Shown: in pieces, positions 8,811 to 61,915 of the stretch
How positions within the stretch are numbered: the first letter of the stretch is position 1
Layout of the letters: every line of letters begins with the position of its first letter
From: Octopus vulgaris
Taxonomy: Eukaryota
Direction: 5' to 3'
DNA: 64,000 bases
NCBI GenBank assembly: GCA_951406725.2
Contig: OX597819.1
Location: 83,142,001 to 83,206,000 of the forward strand
Position numbers and translations under genes: made by a program
Notes under the pieces: model-generated
The model's database searches: none
Told to the model about the DNA's origin: nothing
Seen by the model: the letters and a program-made list of their open reading frames with translations, nothing else

Positions 8811-9540
8811 AACCAATATTATCAAGAAATATAGCTTTAGCTATACTTAAGAGCAGTTATATGTAGCTTTTTGTCAAAATTCATCAGAAATGCATTTTCA
8901 ACAAATTCTTACTGTGCTTCTATGACTGAAGTACATTCATAAAAACCTAATAATGCCATTATGAAATACATTTTAAATAATTTCTTTTTTTTTTTTTTTG
9001 CATTTAAACATAAATTATATAAATTTTCTGAAGCTTCACTGACTTTTTACCAAAAGTGACTTTAATGTTATGAGTGTTTAATGGCCAAGATAGATTCAGC
9101 TTCTTATTTATTTTTCCGGTCCAAGAAGCTTTGGGTTGCACTTCTATAAATGGAGTGCATTTTCGGAAAGCCTTCCAGGATAGCGTACACGTGGACTCAA
9201 ACACCCCACATACAATATACCTTTATATATTCATCGTTGTTTTCACGTCTACTTATCCATGGATCAGAGTTTACTGAAGCAAATTTTCTACACCTGGATG
9301 CCATTCCTGTCACAACCCCTCATCTGTTTCCAAGCAGGTGGCCAGACATGCTTTTGCAGATGATTGGAAATAACATTAATTTACAACAATCTTATGATTT
9401 CAAGAGAAGAAAACACAAATATATATATGTATATATATATATATATATATATGTATAAGGGTGGAAAGGAACACACGAGTTGATATATATGAAAAAACAA
9501 GTCAAAAATAGAAAATGCTAAGATAATTTTATAGTGAATC

Positions 9541-9584
9541 TTTCAGTACCGGTTTCGGTCATTTTGAGACCTTTTCAACTGTAA
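9541..9584 (-). ncRNA. Hammerhead ribozyme, U3-A8 core variant
   Basis: Mirror copy of 9815-9858. Confidence 0.7.
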
Positions 9585-9814
9585 CGATTAAATAATTAAA
9601 TTTAGAAAAATTAGAAGAAAAGTTTTTTTAAAAGAATATTTCTATAGTAGCGTTCAGATATAAGTGGCATTCTGCCTTTCTTGACCTCGAACACACAAGT
9701 GCAAACAAGGGAGTCAGAGAAAGGCAGAATGCCACTTATATCTGAACACTACTATAGAAATATTCTTTTAAAAAAACTTTTCTTCTAATTTTTCTAAATT
9801 TAATTATTTAATCG

Positions 9815-9858
9815 TTACAGTTGAAAAGGTCTCAAAATGACCGAAACCGGTACTGAAA
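9815..9858 (+). ncRNA. Hammerhead ribozyme, U3-A8 core variant
   Basis: CAG TTGAAAA GGTC-tcaaaat-GACC GAAA CCGG TA CTG gives stem I CAG/CTG, stem II GGTC/GACC, a palindromic stem III and a GUA site. Confidence 0.72.
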
Positions 9859-9908
9859 GATTCACTATAAAATTATCTTAGCATTTTCTATTTTTGACTT
9901 GTTTTTTC

Positions 9909-9957
<49 letters not shown>

Positions 9958-10469
9958 CATATTCATATTCATGCATACATGCAAACATTCATATGTGTGT
10001 GTATATATATACATATATGTATGTGTGTCTATGTGTGCGTAAACGCTATCGACTACACATAGTCAATGTATGTGTTTGATTTGTTCTCTGGTTCGCTGCT
10101 GTATAGCGTTTGGAGGATAACGTTCTCGTAAATATGGGTGTTAAAACACCTGAAAGTCATAGACAGGCGAGAATCGTACCTGAATCGAACTGGGGAGGAA
10201 TCAAATCACCATTCTGTGACTATATATGAATAGTGTTGATAAACTACAAAAATAGCAAACTATCAGTATCCATAACTCCTGAATTCGAATGAGTTCTCTC
10301 GTCTGTCGATGATTTTCCTGTGTTTTAACACCCAGTATTATGAGGGAGTTATCCCGCAAGTATTATACTGCAGTGAACCGGCGAACAAACGAAACACACA
10401 TTGCGTATGTGCGGTCGATAATGTTTACAAAACTAATGCTGCTTTTTAATTCGTTATTGAATGCATATA

Positions 10470-10723: not shown

Positions 10724-10755
<32 letters not shown>

Positions 10756-10976
10756 ACTAATGTAGGATAAAAAGTTTTTCGGGAAAAAAATTTTTATCAA
10801 TGGCCAGCATATCAAAAAATACCTTTAAAGGTTAAATTTATAAATAATTTACAAGATAAGGGCAAAAGAAAAATTCTAATGCCAAATATGCCGAAAAAAA
10901 GACAAAAATTGTCAATAACCATTATAATTTATGCGTCTCGAAACAAACCGATAGAAATTTCTTTAAAAATCCGTTA

Positions 10977-11036
10977 TTACCGTATTGGTCCAATTTCGGA
11001 GTTAATTCATAAGAATTTTCCCCTCTTCAGCGATAA
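10977..11036 (-). ncRNA. Type I hammerhead ribozyme (canonical core)
   Basis: Minus strand TTATCG CTGAAGA GGGG-aaaattcttatgaattaa-CTCC GAAA TTGG-a-CCAA TA CGGTAA. Confidence 0.88.
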
Positions 11037-11443
11037 ATACGTGAGATATAAGTGAAATACTTACTCATACCCATGGAAAAAGCAAGCACTAAGTCCTGAG
11101 CAGACCTAAGTACCCCAAATATATCCAAAATAGAAAATCTTCGGCACATCTCGAGACACGTGTGATTCGAAATAGAAACTTTCACAGAGTGAGAGAATCC
11201 GGGAGTGAACACTATTCAATTTATAACTAATGTAGGATAAAATTTTTTTCGGGAAAAAATTTTTTTCAATGGCCAGCATATCAAAAAATACCTTCAAAGG
11301 TTAAATTTATAAATAATTTACAAGATAAGGGCAAAAGAAAAATTCTAATGCCAAATATGCCGAAAAAAGACAAAAATTGTCAATAACCATTATAATTTAT
11401 GCGTCTCGAAACAAACCGATAGAAATTTCTAAAAAATCCGTTA

Positions 11444-11503
11444 TTACCGTATTGGTCCAATTTCGGAGTTAATTCATAAGAATTTTCCCCTCTTCAGCGA
11501 TAA
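11444..11503 (-). ncRNA. Type I hammerhead ribozyme (canonical core), second copy
   Basis: Identical to 10977-11036. Confidence 0.88.
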
Positions 11504-11526
11504 ATACGTAAACACAGAATATACGT

Positions 11527-11594
<68 letters not shown>

Positions 11595-12330: not shown

Positions 12331-12379
12331 GACCTAGCGTATAGAAAAATTAGTCAATAGACTATATATTGTTCATATA

Positions 12380-12655
12380 AAATACAGTGTACATTTAAAC
12401 ACATTAAGAGGTTTCCATCATGGGAATCCTTTACGCTAGAAAGAACAGCTAAAGTCCAAACCACTTGTTAGGGATAAATTCTTGAAGGGAATGAAAAATA
12501 AAAGCATTTACCATAAAGAGATGGTAAATGTTTTTATTTTTCATTCTCTTCAAGAATTTATCCCTAATTTGTGGTTTGGACTTTAGCTGTTCTTTCTAGC
12601 GTCAAAGATTCATATGATGGAAACCACTTAATGTGTTTAAATCTACACTGTATTT
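12380..12655. repeat. Imperfect long hairpin (arms about 135 bp, loop aaagag)
   Basis: aatacagtgt...catttaccat pairs with atggtaaatg...acactgtatt. Confidence 0.88.
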
Positions 12656-12975
12656 TACATCTATCTATCTAGCTATCTGTCTGTCAATTTCTTATCTGTC
12701 TGTCTATCTTTTTATCTACCTATCTACTTTTATATCTACTTATATCCTTAAATCTATTACAGAAAATTAAACCTCCTCATATCTCCTTGTACTCTACAAT
12801 CATTTTATTGTATTTTATCTAATTCCATCTAGATTTATTTTATTCCACTCTCTTCCTTTACCTTCCTAACTTCTCCGACTAACAGCGTTACCCTGTTATC
12901 TTACTATACTCTAATTATGTTGCCTGAGATACACAAACATTTTGTGTGTGTTTGTGTGTGTGAGAGAGAGAGTGT

Positions 12976-14205: not shown

Positions 14206-14242
<37 letters not shown>

Positions 14243-14249
<7 letters not shown>

Positions 14250-15124
14250 ATATTTCGGAATGGTCATATTGCCAGTTTAGCCAATAAAAACACACGCACT
14301 ATATATTTGGTGTTATTTTGCTTCAGTGATATTTATTTTTTACATTAATCTTAATCTTATTTCGGCCAAAGTTCTTTCGTCACACTCCTGTGACCGCATC
14401 AGTGGTCCTTTGTTTTCTTCTCACTTACTTGTGTCTCTCCTTACTAACCGTCAGTCATTTTGTATTTCTATTGTATGTCTTCATTTGCGCATGCTTATAT
14501 CTCTATGTGCGTCTATGTTTATTTAGTGTGTGTGGGGGGGGATGCCTGTAATATTTCTATCTTCTGTTTATATACATTCTTGTAATTTGTATTTTGTTTT
14601 TGTTGTTGTTGCTTTTGTTCGAATTTTGTTCATGTGTTTACATCCACCCATTATTATCATTACATATGCTTGTATGTATGTATAACAACAATATTAGTAA
14701 TAATAATAATAAATCTAATCGAAAAAAAAAAAAAAAACTATATATATATATATACATATATACACACATATATACACATATACATATATATATATACACA
14801 CATACATATATATAGTTATTCATTTCTATTTCTTTAATTATCTGTGTATTTATTATGTTTGCAGGATCCACTATCGTCATATGTTGTGGTGTGTGCTATT
14901 GCTCCATTCTAGTTTTCTATTCAGGCTAGGTTTATTTATAAACCTAGCCTGAATAGAAAAATAGAAAACTAGAATGGAGCAATAGCACACACCACAACAT
15001 ATGACGATAGTGGATCCTGCAAACATAATAAATACACAGATAATTAAAGAAATAGAAATGAATAACTATATATATGTATGTGTGTATATATATATATATA
15101 TGTATATGTGTATATATGTGTGTA

Positions 15125-15171
<47 letters not shown>

Positions 15172-15670
15172 TTTTTTTTGTTTTTTTTCGATTAGATTTA
15201 TTATTATCATTACTAATATTGTTGTTATACATACATACAAGCATATGTAATGATAATAATGGGTGGATGTAAACACATGAACAAAATTCGAACAAAAGCA
15301 ACAACAACAAAAACAAAATACAAATTACAAGAATGTATATAAACAGAAGATAGAAATATTACAGGCATCCCCTCCCCACACACACACTAAATAAACATAG
15401 ACGCACATAGAGATATAAGCATGCGCAAATGAAGACATACAATAGAAATACAAAATGGCTGACGGTTAGTAAGGAGAGACACAAGTAAGTGAGAAGAAAA
15501 CAAAGGACCACTGATGCGGTCACAGGAGTGTGACGAAAGAACTTTGGCCGAAATAAGATTAAGATTAATGTAAAAAATAAATATCACTGAAGCAAAATAA
15601 CACCAAATATATAGTGCGTGTGTTTTTATTGGCTAAACTGGCAATATGACCATTCCGAAATATAACAATA
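14243..15670. repeat. About 1.43-kb near-perfect palindrome (inverted pseudo-LTR-like duplication) in (TA)n
   Basis: Arms of about 700 bp meet at ggtttatttataaacc (about 14929-14944). Mirrored ORFs appear in the ORF track. Confidence 0.93.
15505..15549 (+). ncRNA. Hammerhead-like fold with atypical core (mirror copy about 14363-14410)
   Basis: GGACCA CTGATGCG GTCAC-aggagt-GTGAC GAAA GAAC TT TGGCC. A9 is replaced, and stems I and III are short. Confidence 0.35.
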
Positions 15671-15724
15671 TCTGTTTCAACACACGACTTCACATAAAAA
15701 ATCTTGCACAACAAATATTTAAAC

Positions 15725-32963: not shown

Positions 32964-34154
32964 CAGATCATCCCATAAGTTCTGGCCGAATTTTGAATAA
33001 AGAAAACATGTGTTCAAATGTTATATTGAATTGAAATTTAATCATTAATTTACTTTCCCTGATTATCTATGACTTCCTTCCATCTGTTTACAAGCTTTTT
33101 AATCCAATCAATATAAAACTCATTTGGTTTCAAAGTGAAGAACTCTGAAATGTCTGTTTTTCTGTTTCGACGTCCTCCTGGCTTGCGAAAGTTATGTCCC
33201 CCAAATGATTTTGTAAACTACGAAACAAATGGTAGTCTGAAGGACCAAGGTCTGGAGAATAAGGTGGATGAGGAATTTTTTCCCAACTAAGCTCTTCGAT
33301 CTTCTGTGATGCGATCTTTGCAGTGTGGGGTCGCGCATTGCCCTGATGAAACATTACTCCTTTTCGAGTAACTAAAGCGGGTCTTTTTTTCTGCAAAACT
33401 TGGTTCAAACGCTCTAATTGTTGACGGTAGACTTGAGCATTGATTGTTGCATTAGGTGGTAACAATTCAAAGTGAATTACGCTTTTGCAATCCCAGCAGA
33501 CGGAGAGAACCTTTTTTAACATTTCACATTTCTATAGAAGATTCATTTTTCGTCAGCAGCCACAAGTCTATCCAAAAAGGGGCAAATGAGTTCGCGAGAA
33601 TGGAGAGAAAAGCAGATATCAACTCGAGATTTGCGGTTGCTTTTGCACAATTCATGAGGCACCCACTTTCGAAGTTTAAGAATCTTTCCAAGTTGTTGAA
33701 GATGACGATGAACAGTTGCATGGTTGAACTCATTTTATTGTCAGTTTTTCAAATGATTATGCAGGATTTTCTTTAAGTAATACCTCAAGATGCTTATCAT
33801 CAAACTCAACTGGACGTCCGGTTCGATCTTCATCTTCAAGGTTGAAGTCTCCACTTCTGAATTTCGCAAACCATCTTTTGCAATTTCCTTCATTCTTGCA
33901 TTCTTTCCCATAAACTGAGTACATGTTTCGAGTCGCTTCAGGTGCAGAGTTTCCTTTTTTTTATACTCATAAAGCATTATGTGCCTTAAATGCTCTTTGG
34001 ATACTTCCATGTTAGAAAGTGTTTTAATCAAAGAAATTTTAATTCTATTATTCTGTAAAATAATATTTAATTCCATTAGACATTCTAAAATACTATTAAA
34101 TTTCATTCAATTTTAAAAAAGGTAAAATCGGACAGAACTTGTAGAATGACCTGA
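32963..34154 (-). mobile_element. Mariner relic A with both TIRs
   Basis: MEVSKEHLRH start and HPPYSPDLGPSDYHLF. TIRs tcagatcatcccataagttctg and cagaacttgtagaatgacctga. Flanked by TA. Confidence 0.92.
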
Positions 34155-34206
34155 TATATACATATATATACATATTGAAATCTATATACATATATACCTA
34201 CATACG

Positions 34207-34274
<68 letters not shown>

Positions 34275-34368
34275 ATCCAAACACGAAAGCACAAAAAAAC
34301 ACAAACACGCGAGGACGTGGAACAAATATAGTATTGTTGGACAATCAGGAAGGAAGGAAAGAAGGAGG

Positions 34369-34403
34369 GTTTAACGTTTCGAGCGGAGCTCTTCGTCGGA
34401 AAC
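34369..34403 (-). ncRNA. Minimal hammerhead, U4C variant, in a short element (about 34270-34418)
   Basis: Minus strand GTTT CCGACGA a GAGC-tcc-GCTC GAAA CG TT AAAC. Confidence 0.65.
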
Positions 34404-34411
34404 ATAAGAGA

Positions 34412-35250
34412 AGGAAAGTTTAAGTTCCTATAACCTGTGCTACTTCTGTTAACCCTTTAAAATGGAAGATAAAAAAGTTCATTTTCGGCACTTGATGCTT
34501 TTCTTTTTTCATGAAGGGGAAAATGCCTCACAAGCAACCAAAGAAATATGCGCAGTTTACGGTGATGTTTCTTTATCCGAAGGAACTGTATGGAAGTGGT
34601 TTGCAAGGTTCCGTGATGGAGATTGCAGTCTTGTTGATAAAGAGCGATCACGCAGATCATCTACTACAGATGATGGCCAAATCAAGTCATCAATTGAGAA
34701 TAACCCACATTTCAAAACCCGAGATTTGGCAGAAAGCCTCAACCTATCCAAATCCGTCATTCATGAGTACCTGGTAAAGCTTGGGTACACAAATTGCTGT
34801 GATGTTTGGGTACCACATGAGTTGAGTGAGAAGAACCTTTTGGATCCTATTTCCATCTGTGATTCGCTTTATAAGCGGAATGAAAACGCGCCTTTTTTAA
34901 AGCAGATTGTGACAAGTGATGAGAAATGAATTATCCACCGAAATGTTCAGAGAAAGCGATCCTGGAGTAAGCGACATGAGCCATCCTCAGCTACCCGAAA
35001 AGCGGGTTTTCACCCTAAAAATGTCTTGCTCTGTGTCTGGTGGGATTGGAAAGGAATTCTCTACTATGAGCTTCTTCCAAGTAACCAGTCAATTGATTCT
35101 GAGAAATACTGCACACAATGGACGAGTTAAAAGCAGCAATTCAAGAGAAACGTCCAGAATTGGCCAACAGGGAGGGTGTTGTTTTCCAACATGATAATGC
35201 AAGAACGCACGTTTCTTTCGGAACCAGACAAAAATTGCTGCAGCTCGGCT
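34412..35250 (+). mobile_element. Mariner relic B, truncated at both ends
   Basis: MEDKKVHFRH...WVPHEL...IVTSDEK. Close copy of 37480-38305. Confidence 0.9.
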
Positions 35251-35272: not shown

Positions 35273-36396
35273 TTAGGTCATGCCATAAGTTCTGTCCGAA
35301 TTAGGAATAAAGAAAACAAGGTGTTTAAATGTTATATTGAATTGAAATTTAATCATCAATTTACTTTTCCTGATTATCTATGACTTTCTTCTATCTATTT
35401 TCAAGCTTTTTAATCCAATAAATGTAAAACTCTTTTGGATTCAAAATGAAGAACTCTGAAATGTCAGTTTCGACGTCCTCCTGGCTTTCGAAAATTATGT
35501 CCCCCAAATGATTTTGTAAACTACGAAACAAATGGTAGTCTGAAGGAGCAAGGTCTGGAGAATAAGGTGGATGAGGAATTTCTTTCCCAACTAAGCTCTT
35601 CGATCTTCTGTGATGCGATCTCTGCAGTGTGGGGTCGCGCATTGTCCTGATGAAACATTACTCCTTTTCGAGTAACTAAAGCGGGTCTTTTTTTCTGCAA
35701 AACTTGGTTCAAAAGCTCTAGTTGCTGACGGTAGACTTGAGCATTGATTGTTGCATTAAGTGGTAACAATTCAAAGTGAATTACGCTTTTGCAATCCCAC
35801 CAGACGGAGAGAAGGACCTTTTTTCCATGAAGTTCCCTTCTAGGTTATGGTTGAGGTTTCTTCCATTTTACCAAGCCACTAAGTTGATATCTGCTCTAAG
35901 TTGATAACTTTTCCAAGTTTAAGAATCTTTCCAAGTTGTTGAAGATGACGATGAACAGTTGTATGGTTGAACTCATTTTATTGTCAGTTTTTCAAATGAT
36001 TATGCAGGATTTTCTTTAAGTAATACCTCAAGGTGCTTATCATCAAACTCAACTGGACGTCCGGTTCGATCTTCATCTTCAAGGTTGAAATCTCCACTTC
36101 TGAATTTCGCAAACCATCTTTTGCAAGTTCCTTCATTCATGCATTCTTTCCCATAAACTGAGTACATGTTTCGAGTTGCTTCAGGTGCAGAGTTTCCTTT
36201 TTTTGTACTCATAAAGCATTATGTGCCTTAAATGCTCTTTGGATACTTCCACGTTAGAAAGTGTTTTAATCAAAGAAATTTTAATTCTATTATTCTGTAA
36301 AATAATATTTAATTCCATTAGACATTCTAAAATACTATTAAATTTCATTCAATTTTAAAAAAGGTAAAATCTGACAGAACTTGTGGAATGACCTGA
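35273..36396 (-). mobile_element. Mariner relic A' with both TIRs and an internal deletion
   Basis: Close copy of 32963-34154, with HQDNARPH and SPDLAPSDYHLF. Confidence 0.92.
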
Positions 36397-36494
36397 TATA
36401 TACATATGTATACATACTGAAATATATATACATATATACAAACATATATATATATATATAGATATATACATACATACATACATACATACATACT

Positions 36495-36530
<36 letters not shown>

Positions 36531-36534
<4 letters not shown>

Positions 36535-37309
36535 AAATATTGAATTTCTAAATCTCTCGTAGAGACATGTACGGTGGTGGGGCGATAGAATGGTCGTATA
36601 CTGTCAATCTAACAAGAACGTGACAGTAGGGGGTACGCCACCGCTGTATAGCCCTAGGAAGCATCGAACGCCTCCTGATAGCTTTGACACATTTTTTTCC
36701 CCTGTGTCCTTATATACATATACGAAGGGGAGACAAACACCCCCGGCCGCCGGAACTGCATCTAGGGACACCGTGTTTCAGGATCGTTGTCCTTCATCGG
36801 CCTAGAGTAGCTGACACCGGTCAGCTGGTGATATTTGCCTCGACTTCGTAATTGTATATACATATATTCAGTGAAGTTTATTCACTGATTATCAAAATAA
36901 GAAATATTGAATTTCTAAATCTCTCGTAGAGACATGTACGGTGGTGGGACGATAGAATGGTTGTATACTGTCAATCTAACAAGAACGTGACAGTAGGGGG
37001 TACACCACCGCTGTATAGCCCTAGGAAGCATCGAACGCCTCCTGATAGCTTTGACACATTTTTTTCCCTGTGTCCTTATATACATATACGAAGGGGAGAC
37101 ATGAAGGACAACGATCCTGAAACACGGTGTCCCTAGATGCAGTTCCGGCGGCCGGGGGTGTTTGTCTCCCCTTCGTATATGTATATAAGGACACAGGGGG
37201 AAAAAATGTGTCAAAGCTATCAGGAGGCGTTCGATGCTTCCTAGGGCTATACAGCGGTGGTGTACCCCCTACTGTCACGTTCTTGTTAGATTGACAGTAT
37301 ACAACCATT

Positions 37310-37310
<1 letters not shown>
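36531..37310 (-). mobile_element. Retrozyme-like element: 367-nt unit, partial tandem copy and inverted copy
   Basis: The unit 36531-36897 restarts at 36898-37100. 37101-37310 is the reverse complement of 36588-36797. (TA)n on both sides. Confidence 0.88.
36761..36806 (-). ncRNA. Type I hammerhead ribozyme, U4C variant
   Basis: Minus strand TCTAGG CCGATGA AGGA-caacga-TCCT GAAA CAC-g-GTG TC CCTAGA, with a perfect 6-bp stem I and a GUC site. Confidence 0.85.
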
Positions 37311-39068
<1,758 letters not shown>

Positions 39069-60529: not shown

Positions 60530-61915
60530 ATTACTAGACTATGATTTTAAGTTTATTCCATCTAAGAAATTAGGACATGTTAATTGTTTATCAAGATTGA
60601 TTTCGAAAAATACTGGACCGTTTGAAGATACTATGATTGCTGCGTTGCGAGCAGGAACTGGGATTTAAAATGATATTCCATGTTCCTGACTGCATGTTGA
60701 TCACGCACGTCCACTTAAGCGTTCATATTATCTTGTGGTGGACAGTTTTTCAAAGTGGCCTGAAGTGCATAAGTGTAAAAAGCTTAAATTTGTGATTACA
60801 GTATTTTTTTTTACACGAATTGTTCACCAGATATGGTATTTTTGATAGCATTGGGTCTGATAATAGAGCTTAGTTTACTTCAGTCGAGTTCAAAAAGTTT
60901 TGTAAAAAGTTCGTTATCGAACATGTGACCACTCCGCCGTATCATTCTATGTCGAAATGTAAGGTGGAGTGTTTTGTTGATACTTTTAAGAGGGGTTTTA
61001 AAAAGGCGAACAACGAAGTAATGGATGACTTAACACTTCAACAATTTCTAAGAGTGTACCGAGAAACATCTGATCCGAATACACCATCTGGAATGTCACC
61101 AGCGGAATTAAGGTTTGCTAGAAAGATCAGATCTGCTTTTGATAATTCGATACCGAGTAATAAAAGAAAAAATGGCGAACAACAAATATACTTCAAAATT
61201 CTTCAAGATAGGTTACAAAGTTTGTTTGTTTTTTTAATTGTACAGATATGGTAAAGAAAGTTGGGAGAACGGAGTAATTATTGAACAAATTGGAAAAGTA
61301 TTATTCCTGGTAAAAGGATCTTTTCACTTTGACCAGCAGATTTTAAAAATAATTTCTTTGTAACTAAACACTTTTAAACTTCGTATACTGGTAGAATGTT
61401 TCACATAAAACATCTTTTTCTCTTGGCGTTCTTGAGAAAATTAAGTAGTTTGTAAGCTATTTCTTGTTTAATTTCTCGTATTTCGGCAATTTCAACCAAT
61501 CAATGACGTCTATTAACAAACTACATAATTTTCTCAAGAACGCCAAGAGAAAAAGATGTTTTATGTGAAACATTCTACCAGTATACGAAGTTTAAAAGTG
61601 TTTAGTTACAAAGAAATTATTTTTAAAATCTGCCGGTCAAAGTGAAAAGATCCCTGGTAAAAAGAAAAAAATTTCGAACATAAAAGACATATAAGCCAAC
61701 TTAAAAAGATGTACGGAAGAAACAGTCACGAAAGACGAAATTCCCATGGAAGTTTTGTACGCCCATGTTTGAAGGTACCAACATCCCCAAAAATTGAAGC
61801 TACACGTTCAAGTAACAGAAAAAGGAAAAGAACGGAAATACTAGAATTAAACTCTAAGCGTAAGAGATATTAAAACTCTGGACGGAGTTTAAATTTCAGA
61901 AAGGGGAGAAGTTAT
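60530..61915 (+). mobile_element. Gypsy-like LTR retrotransposon integrase relic with polypurine tract
   Basis: VVDSFSKWPEV, GSDN and TTPPYHSMS..VECFVDTFKR..MSPAEL motifs. PPT-like aaaggggagaag at about 61901. Confidence 0.75.
61316..61653. mobile_element. MITE with TIRs of about 135 bp and 9-bp TSD (CTGGTAAAA)
   Basis: ggatcttttcactttgacc...ggtcaaagtgaaaagatcc. CTGGTAAAA at 61307-61315 and 61654-61662. Confidence 0.92.

What the first reader, a model, noticed from the sequence alone, without database searches (positions are those of the whole stretch)
36531..37310. Second retrozyme family: 367-nt unit with a U4C hammerhead and an inversion that starts inside the ribozyme core
Seen: unit 36531-36897 restarts at 36898, breaks at 37100, and continues as an inverted copy beginning ATGAAGGAC, within the CCGATGA core. 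The intact ribozyme at 36761-36806 has a perfect 6-bp stem I and a GUC site. Inference: the more-than-unit-length, permuted structure fits reverse transcription around a circular or multimeric RNA, followed by the 5' inversion typical of Penelope integration.
Basis: partly seen in the sequence, partly recalled or inferred. Interest (0 to 1): 0.75.

Follow-up and report, generated by a model that had tools for sequence, protein, structure and literature searches.

The report
Retrozyme fused to its Penelope driver
This is one of several hundred young copies of a small protein-free jumping repeat with a predicted self-cutting RNA motif (a known kind), and two other copies are fused directly to a Penelope-type jumping gene, which is therefore the likely enzyme source that spreads it.

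Summary
The anatomy is real: a 367-nt unit, a partial second unit and an inverted arm in a TA tract, with a type I hammerhead on the minus strand. It belongs to a young dispersed family (471 exact 3'-end matches) in which C4 is the norm (182 versus 6). Two first-reader points fail. Ends are fixed, not permuted: 214 of 230 outward 3' ends sit at two sites 54 nt apart, and 71 of 85 two-armed insertions use one of each, the Penelope 'tail' footprint. The inversion point inside the core is at chance level (7 of 192, 5.2 expected). Both arms share subfamily variants, so they likely copy one RNA source; about half read through the cut site. Two of 145 insertions are fused, with no TA between, to a 5'-truncated Neptune/Nematis-type Penelope element with no sequence likeness to the repeat: the likely driver. 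Cleavage and circles are untested. The scan noted the two-site footprint before for other families in this genome; my look-ups showed no chimera note. New member of a known kind.

The parts
36531..36897 (-). Full 367-nt unit (unit positions s1 = 36897 to s367 = 36531); 3' end at the fixed 'T' site, abutting the TA tract
36898..37101 (-). 5'-truncated upstream unit (s163/164-367), partial tandem
37101..37313 (+). Inverted arm s101-313, ending at the second fixed 'S' site; 1-nt overlap at the junction
36761..36806 (-). Predicted type I hammerhead: stem I 6 bp, core 36800-36794 with C at position 4 (36799), stem II 4 bp closed by A-U, near-palindromic stem III, predicted cut after 36767
36714..36860 (-). 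Long predicted hairpin (s38-184) that extends stem I; family variants mostly keep its pairs
36531..36584 (-). 54-nt 'tail' between the two fixed ends (s314-367), two short predicted hairpins
36498..36530 (.). TA microsatellite target, left part
37312..37350 (.). TA microsatellite target, right part

Best explanation
The locus is one insertion of a young, dispersed, non-coding 367-nt hammerhead repeat whose copies end at two fixed sites, and it was likely written by the reverse transcriptase and GIY-YIG endonuclease of a Neptune/Nematis-type Penelope-like element acting in trans. Inferred steps: the enzyme cuts both strands of a TA-rich target with a stagger of roughly 7-13 bases; one DNA end starts copying at s365-367 and the other at s310-314 of the same RNA source; both run towards the RNA 5' end, often through the ribozyme site and the unit junction, on an uncut multimer or a ligated circle; the two cDNAs are joined head to head at variable points with 0-2 bases of overlap, giving inverted arm, partial unit and full unit. 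The hammerhead would cut transcripts to unit length, likely slowly or as a dimer, but cut ends do not set the insertion boundaries.
For: Fixed ends: 117 + 97 of 230 outward 3' ends at s362-367 and s307-315; 55 of 61 in the core-selected sample. Pairing rule: 71 of 85 two-armed insertions are S+T, 1 T+T, 0 S+S; 15 of 19, 0, 0 in the core-selected sample. This is the published Penelope layout (partial tandem, inverted 5' copy, tail at one end: PMC8557442, PMC3846280 passages) and two RT start sites bounding the tail were shown in vitro (PMC11167929, parts 1-2 of 4). Targets: 48 of 85 two-armed insertions have TA both sides; 13 of the other 37 have a non-simple duplication of 7 or more bases. Arms share minor alleles 134 to 42, against 11730 to 87463 between insertions. 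In 18 of 31 single-piece S+T insertions the inverted arm holds sequence the direct arm lacks, so it is not a fold-back copy. Two chimeras with one Penelope family. Ribozyme core and stems: 0 of 37 sites polymorphic against 43 of 299 elsewhere, p = 0.008.
Against: No cleavage, circle or enzyme test. Only 2 chimeras in 145 insertions and none new in 38 further loci; both element types favour TA tracts and the Penelope family has 5658 exact 3' ends, so adjacent insertion followed by deletion is possible. The repeat and this Penelope family share no sequence, and other Penelope families exist in the genome. 59 within-insertion pair-site comparisons at polymorphic sites are discordant, which one identical circle explains only through later mutation. 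The tail is 54 nt, longer than the published 30-40.
Confidence: 0.8

Rival explanations
1. The copies are solo pseudo-LTRs or 5'-truncated ends of an autonomous Penelope element whose own terminal repeat is this 367-nt unit.
For: Same insertion footprint as autonomous elements; pLTRs carry type I hammerheads (PMC4209133, parts 1-2 of 4).
Against: Upstream of s1 lies s367 of the same unit (84 exact junctions), not an ORF; in 145 insertions the only coding neighbours were the two chimeras and unrelated or TA-separated pieces; the hammerhead is of canonical, not minimal, size.
Confidence: 0.07
2. The inverted arm arises by fold-back self-priming of one cDNA (or an antisense template) and is trimmed at s313 by the endonuclease, as proposed for rotifer Penelope elements.
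For: Inner ends of the two arms lie within 25 nt in 19 of 66 insertions, 9.6 expected, p = 0.002; hypothesis in PMC3846280 (passages).
Against: 18 of 31 inverted arms contain sequence absent from the direct arm; in chimera L147 the S arm (s175-313) is wholly absent from the other arm; 23 of 60 one-armed insertions end at S with no inversion.
Confidence: 0.1
3. A LINE mobilises the repeat, with L1-like twin priming giving the inversion; the Penelope chimeras are coincidences.
For: Variable 5' truncation, inversions and target duplications also occur with LINEs (recalled); PMC7229834 names LINEs as candidates.
Against: No poly(A) or repeat tail of its own; two fixed internal starts with a strict S+T pairing are a Penelope trait; both chimeras involve one Penelope family.
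Confidence: 0.03

Closest known systems
Metazoan non-LTR retrozymes (Cervera and de la Pena 2020, PMC7229834; passages and section 14 read; mussel 350-390 bp)
   Same: Non-coding 367-nt repeat, 45% GC, canonical-size type I hammerhead in each unit, highly self-paired, tandem copies, larger target duplications, co-occurring Penelope elements.
   Different: Here arrays are short (at most about 2.8 units in a row seen) and mostly two-armed inverted insertions; C4 core; cleavage and circular RNA not shown. That paper names Penelope elements only as strong candidates for mobilisation.
Li, Clavereau and Pollet 2026 (bioRxiv 10.64898/2026.07.22.740005; parts 1-3 of 5 read, supplements closed)
   Same: Concludes that animal retrozymes are non-autonomous Penelope derivatives.
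   Different: Its evidence is co-occurrence and pLTR homology in Xenopus; here there is no homology to the candidate driver, and the evidence is insertion ends and fused copies. It found cleavage in only 1 of 9 tested dimers.
Endonuclease-positive Penelope-like elements: Anolis PAc (PMC11167929), Naiad/Neptune/Nematis (PMC8557442), rotifer Penelope (PMC3846280)
   Same: Partial tandem, inverted 5' copy, tail at one end, AT-rich or TA targets, two internal RT start sites, hammerhead cutting dispensable for insertion in vitro.
   Different: No ORF; tail 54 nt instead of 30-40.
Natural U4C hammerhead variant (passage in Perreault 2011, PMC3088659)
   Same: U4C is known; said to lower activity in vitro yet permit viroid infectivity.
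   Different: Here it is the propagating allele of a family, with an A-U closing pair in stem II.

Membership tests
Non-LTR retrozyme | Non-coding 150-450 bp repeat, GC under 50%, no LTR | tested here: met
   367 nt, 166 of 367 G+C; unit joins itself head to tail
Non-LTR retrozyme | Type I hammerhead in each unit | tested here: met
   with U4C and an A-U closing pair; not detected by Rfam
Non-LTR retrozyme | Dispersed and tandem copies, some with two hammerheads in one orientation | tested here: met
   L010, L013, L025 and others; the window copy has only one intact motif
Non-LTR retrozyme | Self-cleavage | not testable with these tools
   only conservation of core and stems
Non-LTR retrozyme | Unit-length circular RNA | tested here: inconclusive
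   only assembled contigs of runs not on record as RNA
Non-autonomous Penelope-like element | Partial tandem plus inverted 5' copy with a tail at one end | tested here: met
   71 of 85 two-armed insertions S+T
Non-autonomous Penelope-like element | TA/AT-rich targets, variable target duplication | tested here: met
Non-autonomous Penelope-like element | 3'-end sequence likeness to an autonomous partner | tested here: not met
   no blastn hit beyond simple repeats or 16 nt against the chimera partner; other Penelope families not tested
Autonomous Penelope-like element | RT plus GIY-YIG ORF | tested here: not met
   none inside the unit or between units
Neptune/Nematis clade (the fused partner) | C-terminal GIY-YIG preceded by a Cx2-5CxxC motif; DKG motif; RT domain | tested here: met
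   motifs read in the ORF against the description in PMC8557442; Pfam RVT_1 6e-09; Pfam did not report the GIY-YIG domain; no tree built, so the two clades are not told apart

The most novel reading that the evidence does not exclude
One Penelope protein complex copies a non-homologous ribozyme RNA from two fixed internal sites on both cut DNA ends, and can jump between its own mRNA and that RNA within one integration. The two chimeras would be genomic records of such jumps, naming the driver; in L147 the jump lands at s124, 7 nt from the predicted cut, and both arms fit inside one cut monomer, which would be a trace of U4C ribozyme cleavage in vivo.
Probability: 0.35. Interest if true: 0.65.

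Novelty: new member of a known kind. Interest (0 to 1): 0.42.

Why it matters
Which enzyme mobilises animal retrozymes has been proposed from co-occurrence and homology, not shown. This family gives a defined RNA (367 nt), two exact start sites and a named, young, partly intact candidate protein, so the existing in vitro Penelope assay can test mobilisation in trans directly, and test the two-start, two-strand rule behind Penelope inverted insertions. The family itself and the U4C core are ordinary.

Tried and rejected
Inversion point tied to the ribozyme: rejected (7 of 192 breakpoints in s95-104, 5.2 expected; 3 of 192 within 5 nt of the cut, 5.8 expected). Circular permutation of ends: rejected. 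U4 copies as a lineage: rejected for the two checked by position, where C4 and U4 arms lie in one insertion. G at s366 as a family variant that would lengthen the chimera overlap: not seen in 84 junctions. Paired 3' ends 2.5 and 3.8 kb apart (L067, L068): a local duplication and an interrupted copy, no Penelope ORF. L155 and L145 as chimeras: not counted (decayed 73% fragment; TA between). Targeted search of 29 non-TA 3' junctions: only the known chimera. Stall of T arms 25-50 nt short of one full turn (10 of 30 against 4 of 39 S arms, p = 0.03): window chosen after the fact, too weak to count for a circle. RNA: no RNA holder listed on record; contigs cannot show ends or circles. Rfam and phage collection: nothing. 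Paper searches for hammerhead + CCGAUGA, octopus + penelope + hammerhead and penelope + template switch + chimeric + nonautonomous + hammerhead listed no description of this family or of such chimeras (listings only). Lunse et al. on Penelope hammerhead variants was not held, so whether it lists C4 variants is open.

Full report
Observation. The window holds a 367-nt unit at 36531-36897, a 98% identical partial copy at 36898-37101 and a 98% identical inverted copy at 37101-37313, between two TA tracts. The minus strand of 36806-36761 is a type I hammerhead with 6-bp stem I, CCGAUGA core, 4-bp stem II closed by A-U, GAAA, a 3-bp stem III and GUC. The unit folds far better than shuffles (z -5.85). 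Rfam does not detect it. I number the unit in ribozyme sense, s1 = 36897; the predicted cut is s131/132.

Family. The own genome (2.8 Gb, 227 contigs) gave 113 matches among 40 scored of 2209 candidates, 92-100% identical, 471 exact matches to the 3' end, 182 to the C4 core and 6 to the U4 core. Contigs from runs of four other coded organisms hold the unit, with no change listed at the C4 position. I built a catalogue of 145 insertion clusters from the 30 best hits, the 6 U4 hits, loci around the first 100 of the 471 tail hits and 40 further regions from the first 100 of the 182 core hits. Four loci split into two clusters and two pairs are local duplicates; I did not remove these. The first and third samples are biased to copies with a tail; the core sample (42 clusters) is not.

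Ends are fixed. Of 230 outward-facing 3' ends, 117 lie at s362-367 (T) and 97 at s307-315 (S), 16 elsewhere; in the core sample 25, 30 and 6 of 61. Of 85 two-armed insertions 71 pair an S arm with a T arm, one is T+T and none S+S (core sample 15 of 19, 0, 0). The window locus is a typical S+T case. This is the published Penelope layout of partial tandem, inverted 5' copy and tail at one end (PMC8557442 and PMC3846280, passages), and Frangieh et al. showed in vitro that the tail lies between two internal RT start sites, that both target strands are cut and extended, and that hammerhead cutting is not needed (PMC11167929, parts 1-2 of 4). 48 of 85 two-armed insertions have TA on both sides and 13 of the other 37 have a non-simple target duplication of 7-13 bases (lengths include microhomology).

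Inner breakpoints are variable. Seven of 192 fall in the core (5.2 expected) and 3 within 5 nt of the cut (5.8 expected), so the title feature is chance. In 66 regular S+T insertions, 34 T arms and 37 S arms pass the cut site, so the template was an uncut multimer or a ligated circle. The two arms share minor alleles (134 shared, 42 discordant; 11730 and 87463 between insertions) and differ by 2.0% against 3.9% between insertions: one source per insertion. Inner ends of the two arms are near each other more often than chance (19 of 66, 9.6 expected, p = 0.002), yet 18 of 31 single-piece inverted arms hold sequence missing from the direct arm, which argues against plain fold-back. Circle versus multimer is not settled; a stall just short of one turn is weak and post hoc.

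Ribozyme. No site of 37 in core and stems is polymorphic at 5%, against 43 of 299 elsewhere (p = 0.008; related copies are not independent), and most variants in the long stems keep pairing. Stem III is a perfect palindrome in 38 and a near palindrome in 63 of the insertions scored, as in dimer-acting animal hammerheads (PMC4209133, parts 1-2 of 4). U4C is a known, activity-lowering natural variant (PMC3088659, passage) and is also the major allele of an abundant minimal hammerhead in this genome (8113 against 3170). Activity is inferred, not shown.

Driver. Two insertions are fused to a Penelope element. In L042/L072 (G000 C1) the order is TA, inverted s313-201, direct s207-365, then without any TA a 5'-truncated ORF with DKG, RT, a Cx4CxxC motif and GIY-YIG, its 3' untranslated region with a minimal hammerhead, and TA. 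Fourteen other copies show that the ORF continues upstream of this point; overlap is 1 base. In L147 (C5) the order is inverted s313-175, direct s327-367 and s1-124, then the last codons and 3' end of a related copy (82-90%), with a 3-base overlap and a possible 7-base AT-only duplication around the whole. In both, the Penelope 3' end forms one boundary and the repeat's S site the other, which is what one integration with a template jump would leave. The Penelope family is young (99% identical copies), occurs as partial tandems of about 4.5 kb, has 5658 exact 3' ends and shares no sequence with the repeat. Against: only two cases, none new in 38 further loci, and TA-sharing neighbours are common, so insertion side by side followed by deletion is not excluded; I put template jump at about 0.7.

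Comparison and verdict. It meets the sequence-level definition of a metazoan non-LTR retrozyme (PMC7229834, passages and section 14) and works like a non-autonomous Penelope element; the 2026 preprint (parts 1-3 of 5; supplements closed) already argues this link by homology. Earlier notes of this scan describe the two-site footprint for 352-590-nt families in this genome, including a 359-nt CCGAUGA family; a look-up by sequence found none for this unit and a look-up for chimeras none. These notes are not independent support. What this family adds is the pair of fused copies. New member of a known kind; interest 0.42.

Noticed in passing
window 33667-35250 and 35910-38305: Paralogous segments with transposase-like pieces (mariner-like by recall). 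The matching TA tract at about 34210-34270 lacks the retrozyme and is followed by a different repeat end; the sequence right of the two tracts differs for about 140 bases.
   Followed up: partly
window 34270-34410, minus strand: End of a very abundant TA-targeting repeat with a minimal hammerhead whose core also has C4 (8113 versus 3170 exact matches); laid out like the Penelope 3' end, but no ORF within 1.5 kb in 6 of 6 loci.
   Followed up: partly
window 10749-11530, minus strand: Another TA-flanked partial tandem (467-nt spacing) with two CUGAAGA type I hammerheads at 11503-11444 and 11036-10977.
   Followed up: no
L128-L130 (G000 C13, C11, C9): The chimera-partner Penelope family carries a minimal hammerhead-like motif with U at core position 6 about 125 nt before its 3' end, in all intact ends seen.
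   Followed up: no
L067 (G000 C1:93932500-93941500): A retrozyme copy is split near s63-79 by a 3.4-kb insert with two tandem ORFs (zinc-knuckle, LINE ORF1-like by recall); L054 and L103 share the same 5' neighbour at s63. May be a retroelement that targets this repeat.
   Followed up: no
window 14242-15671, 9418-9963, 61316-61653, 12375-12660: Several long self-inverted segments, possibly further two-armed insertions.
   Followed up: no
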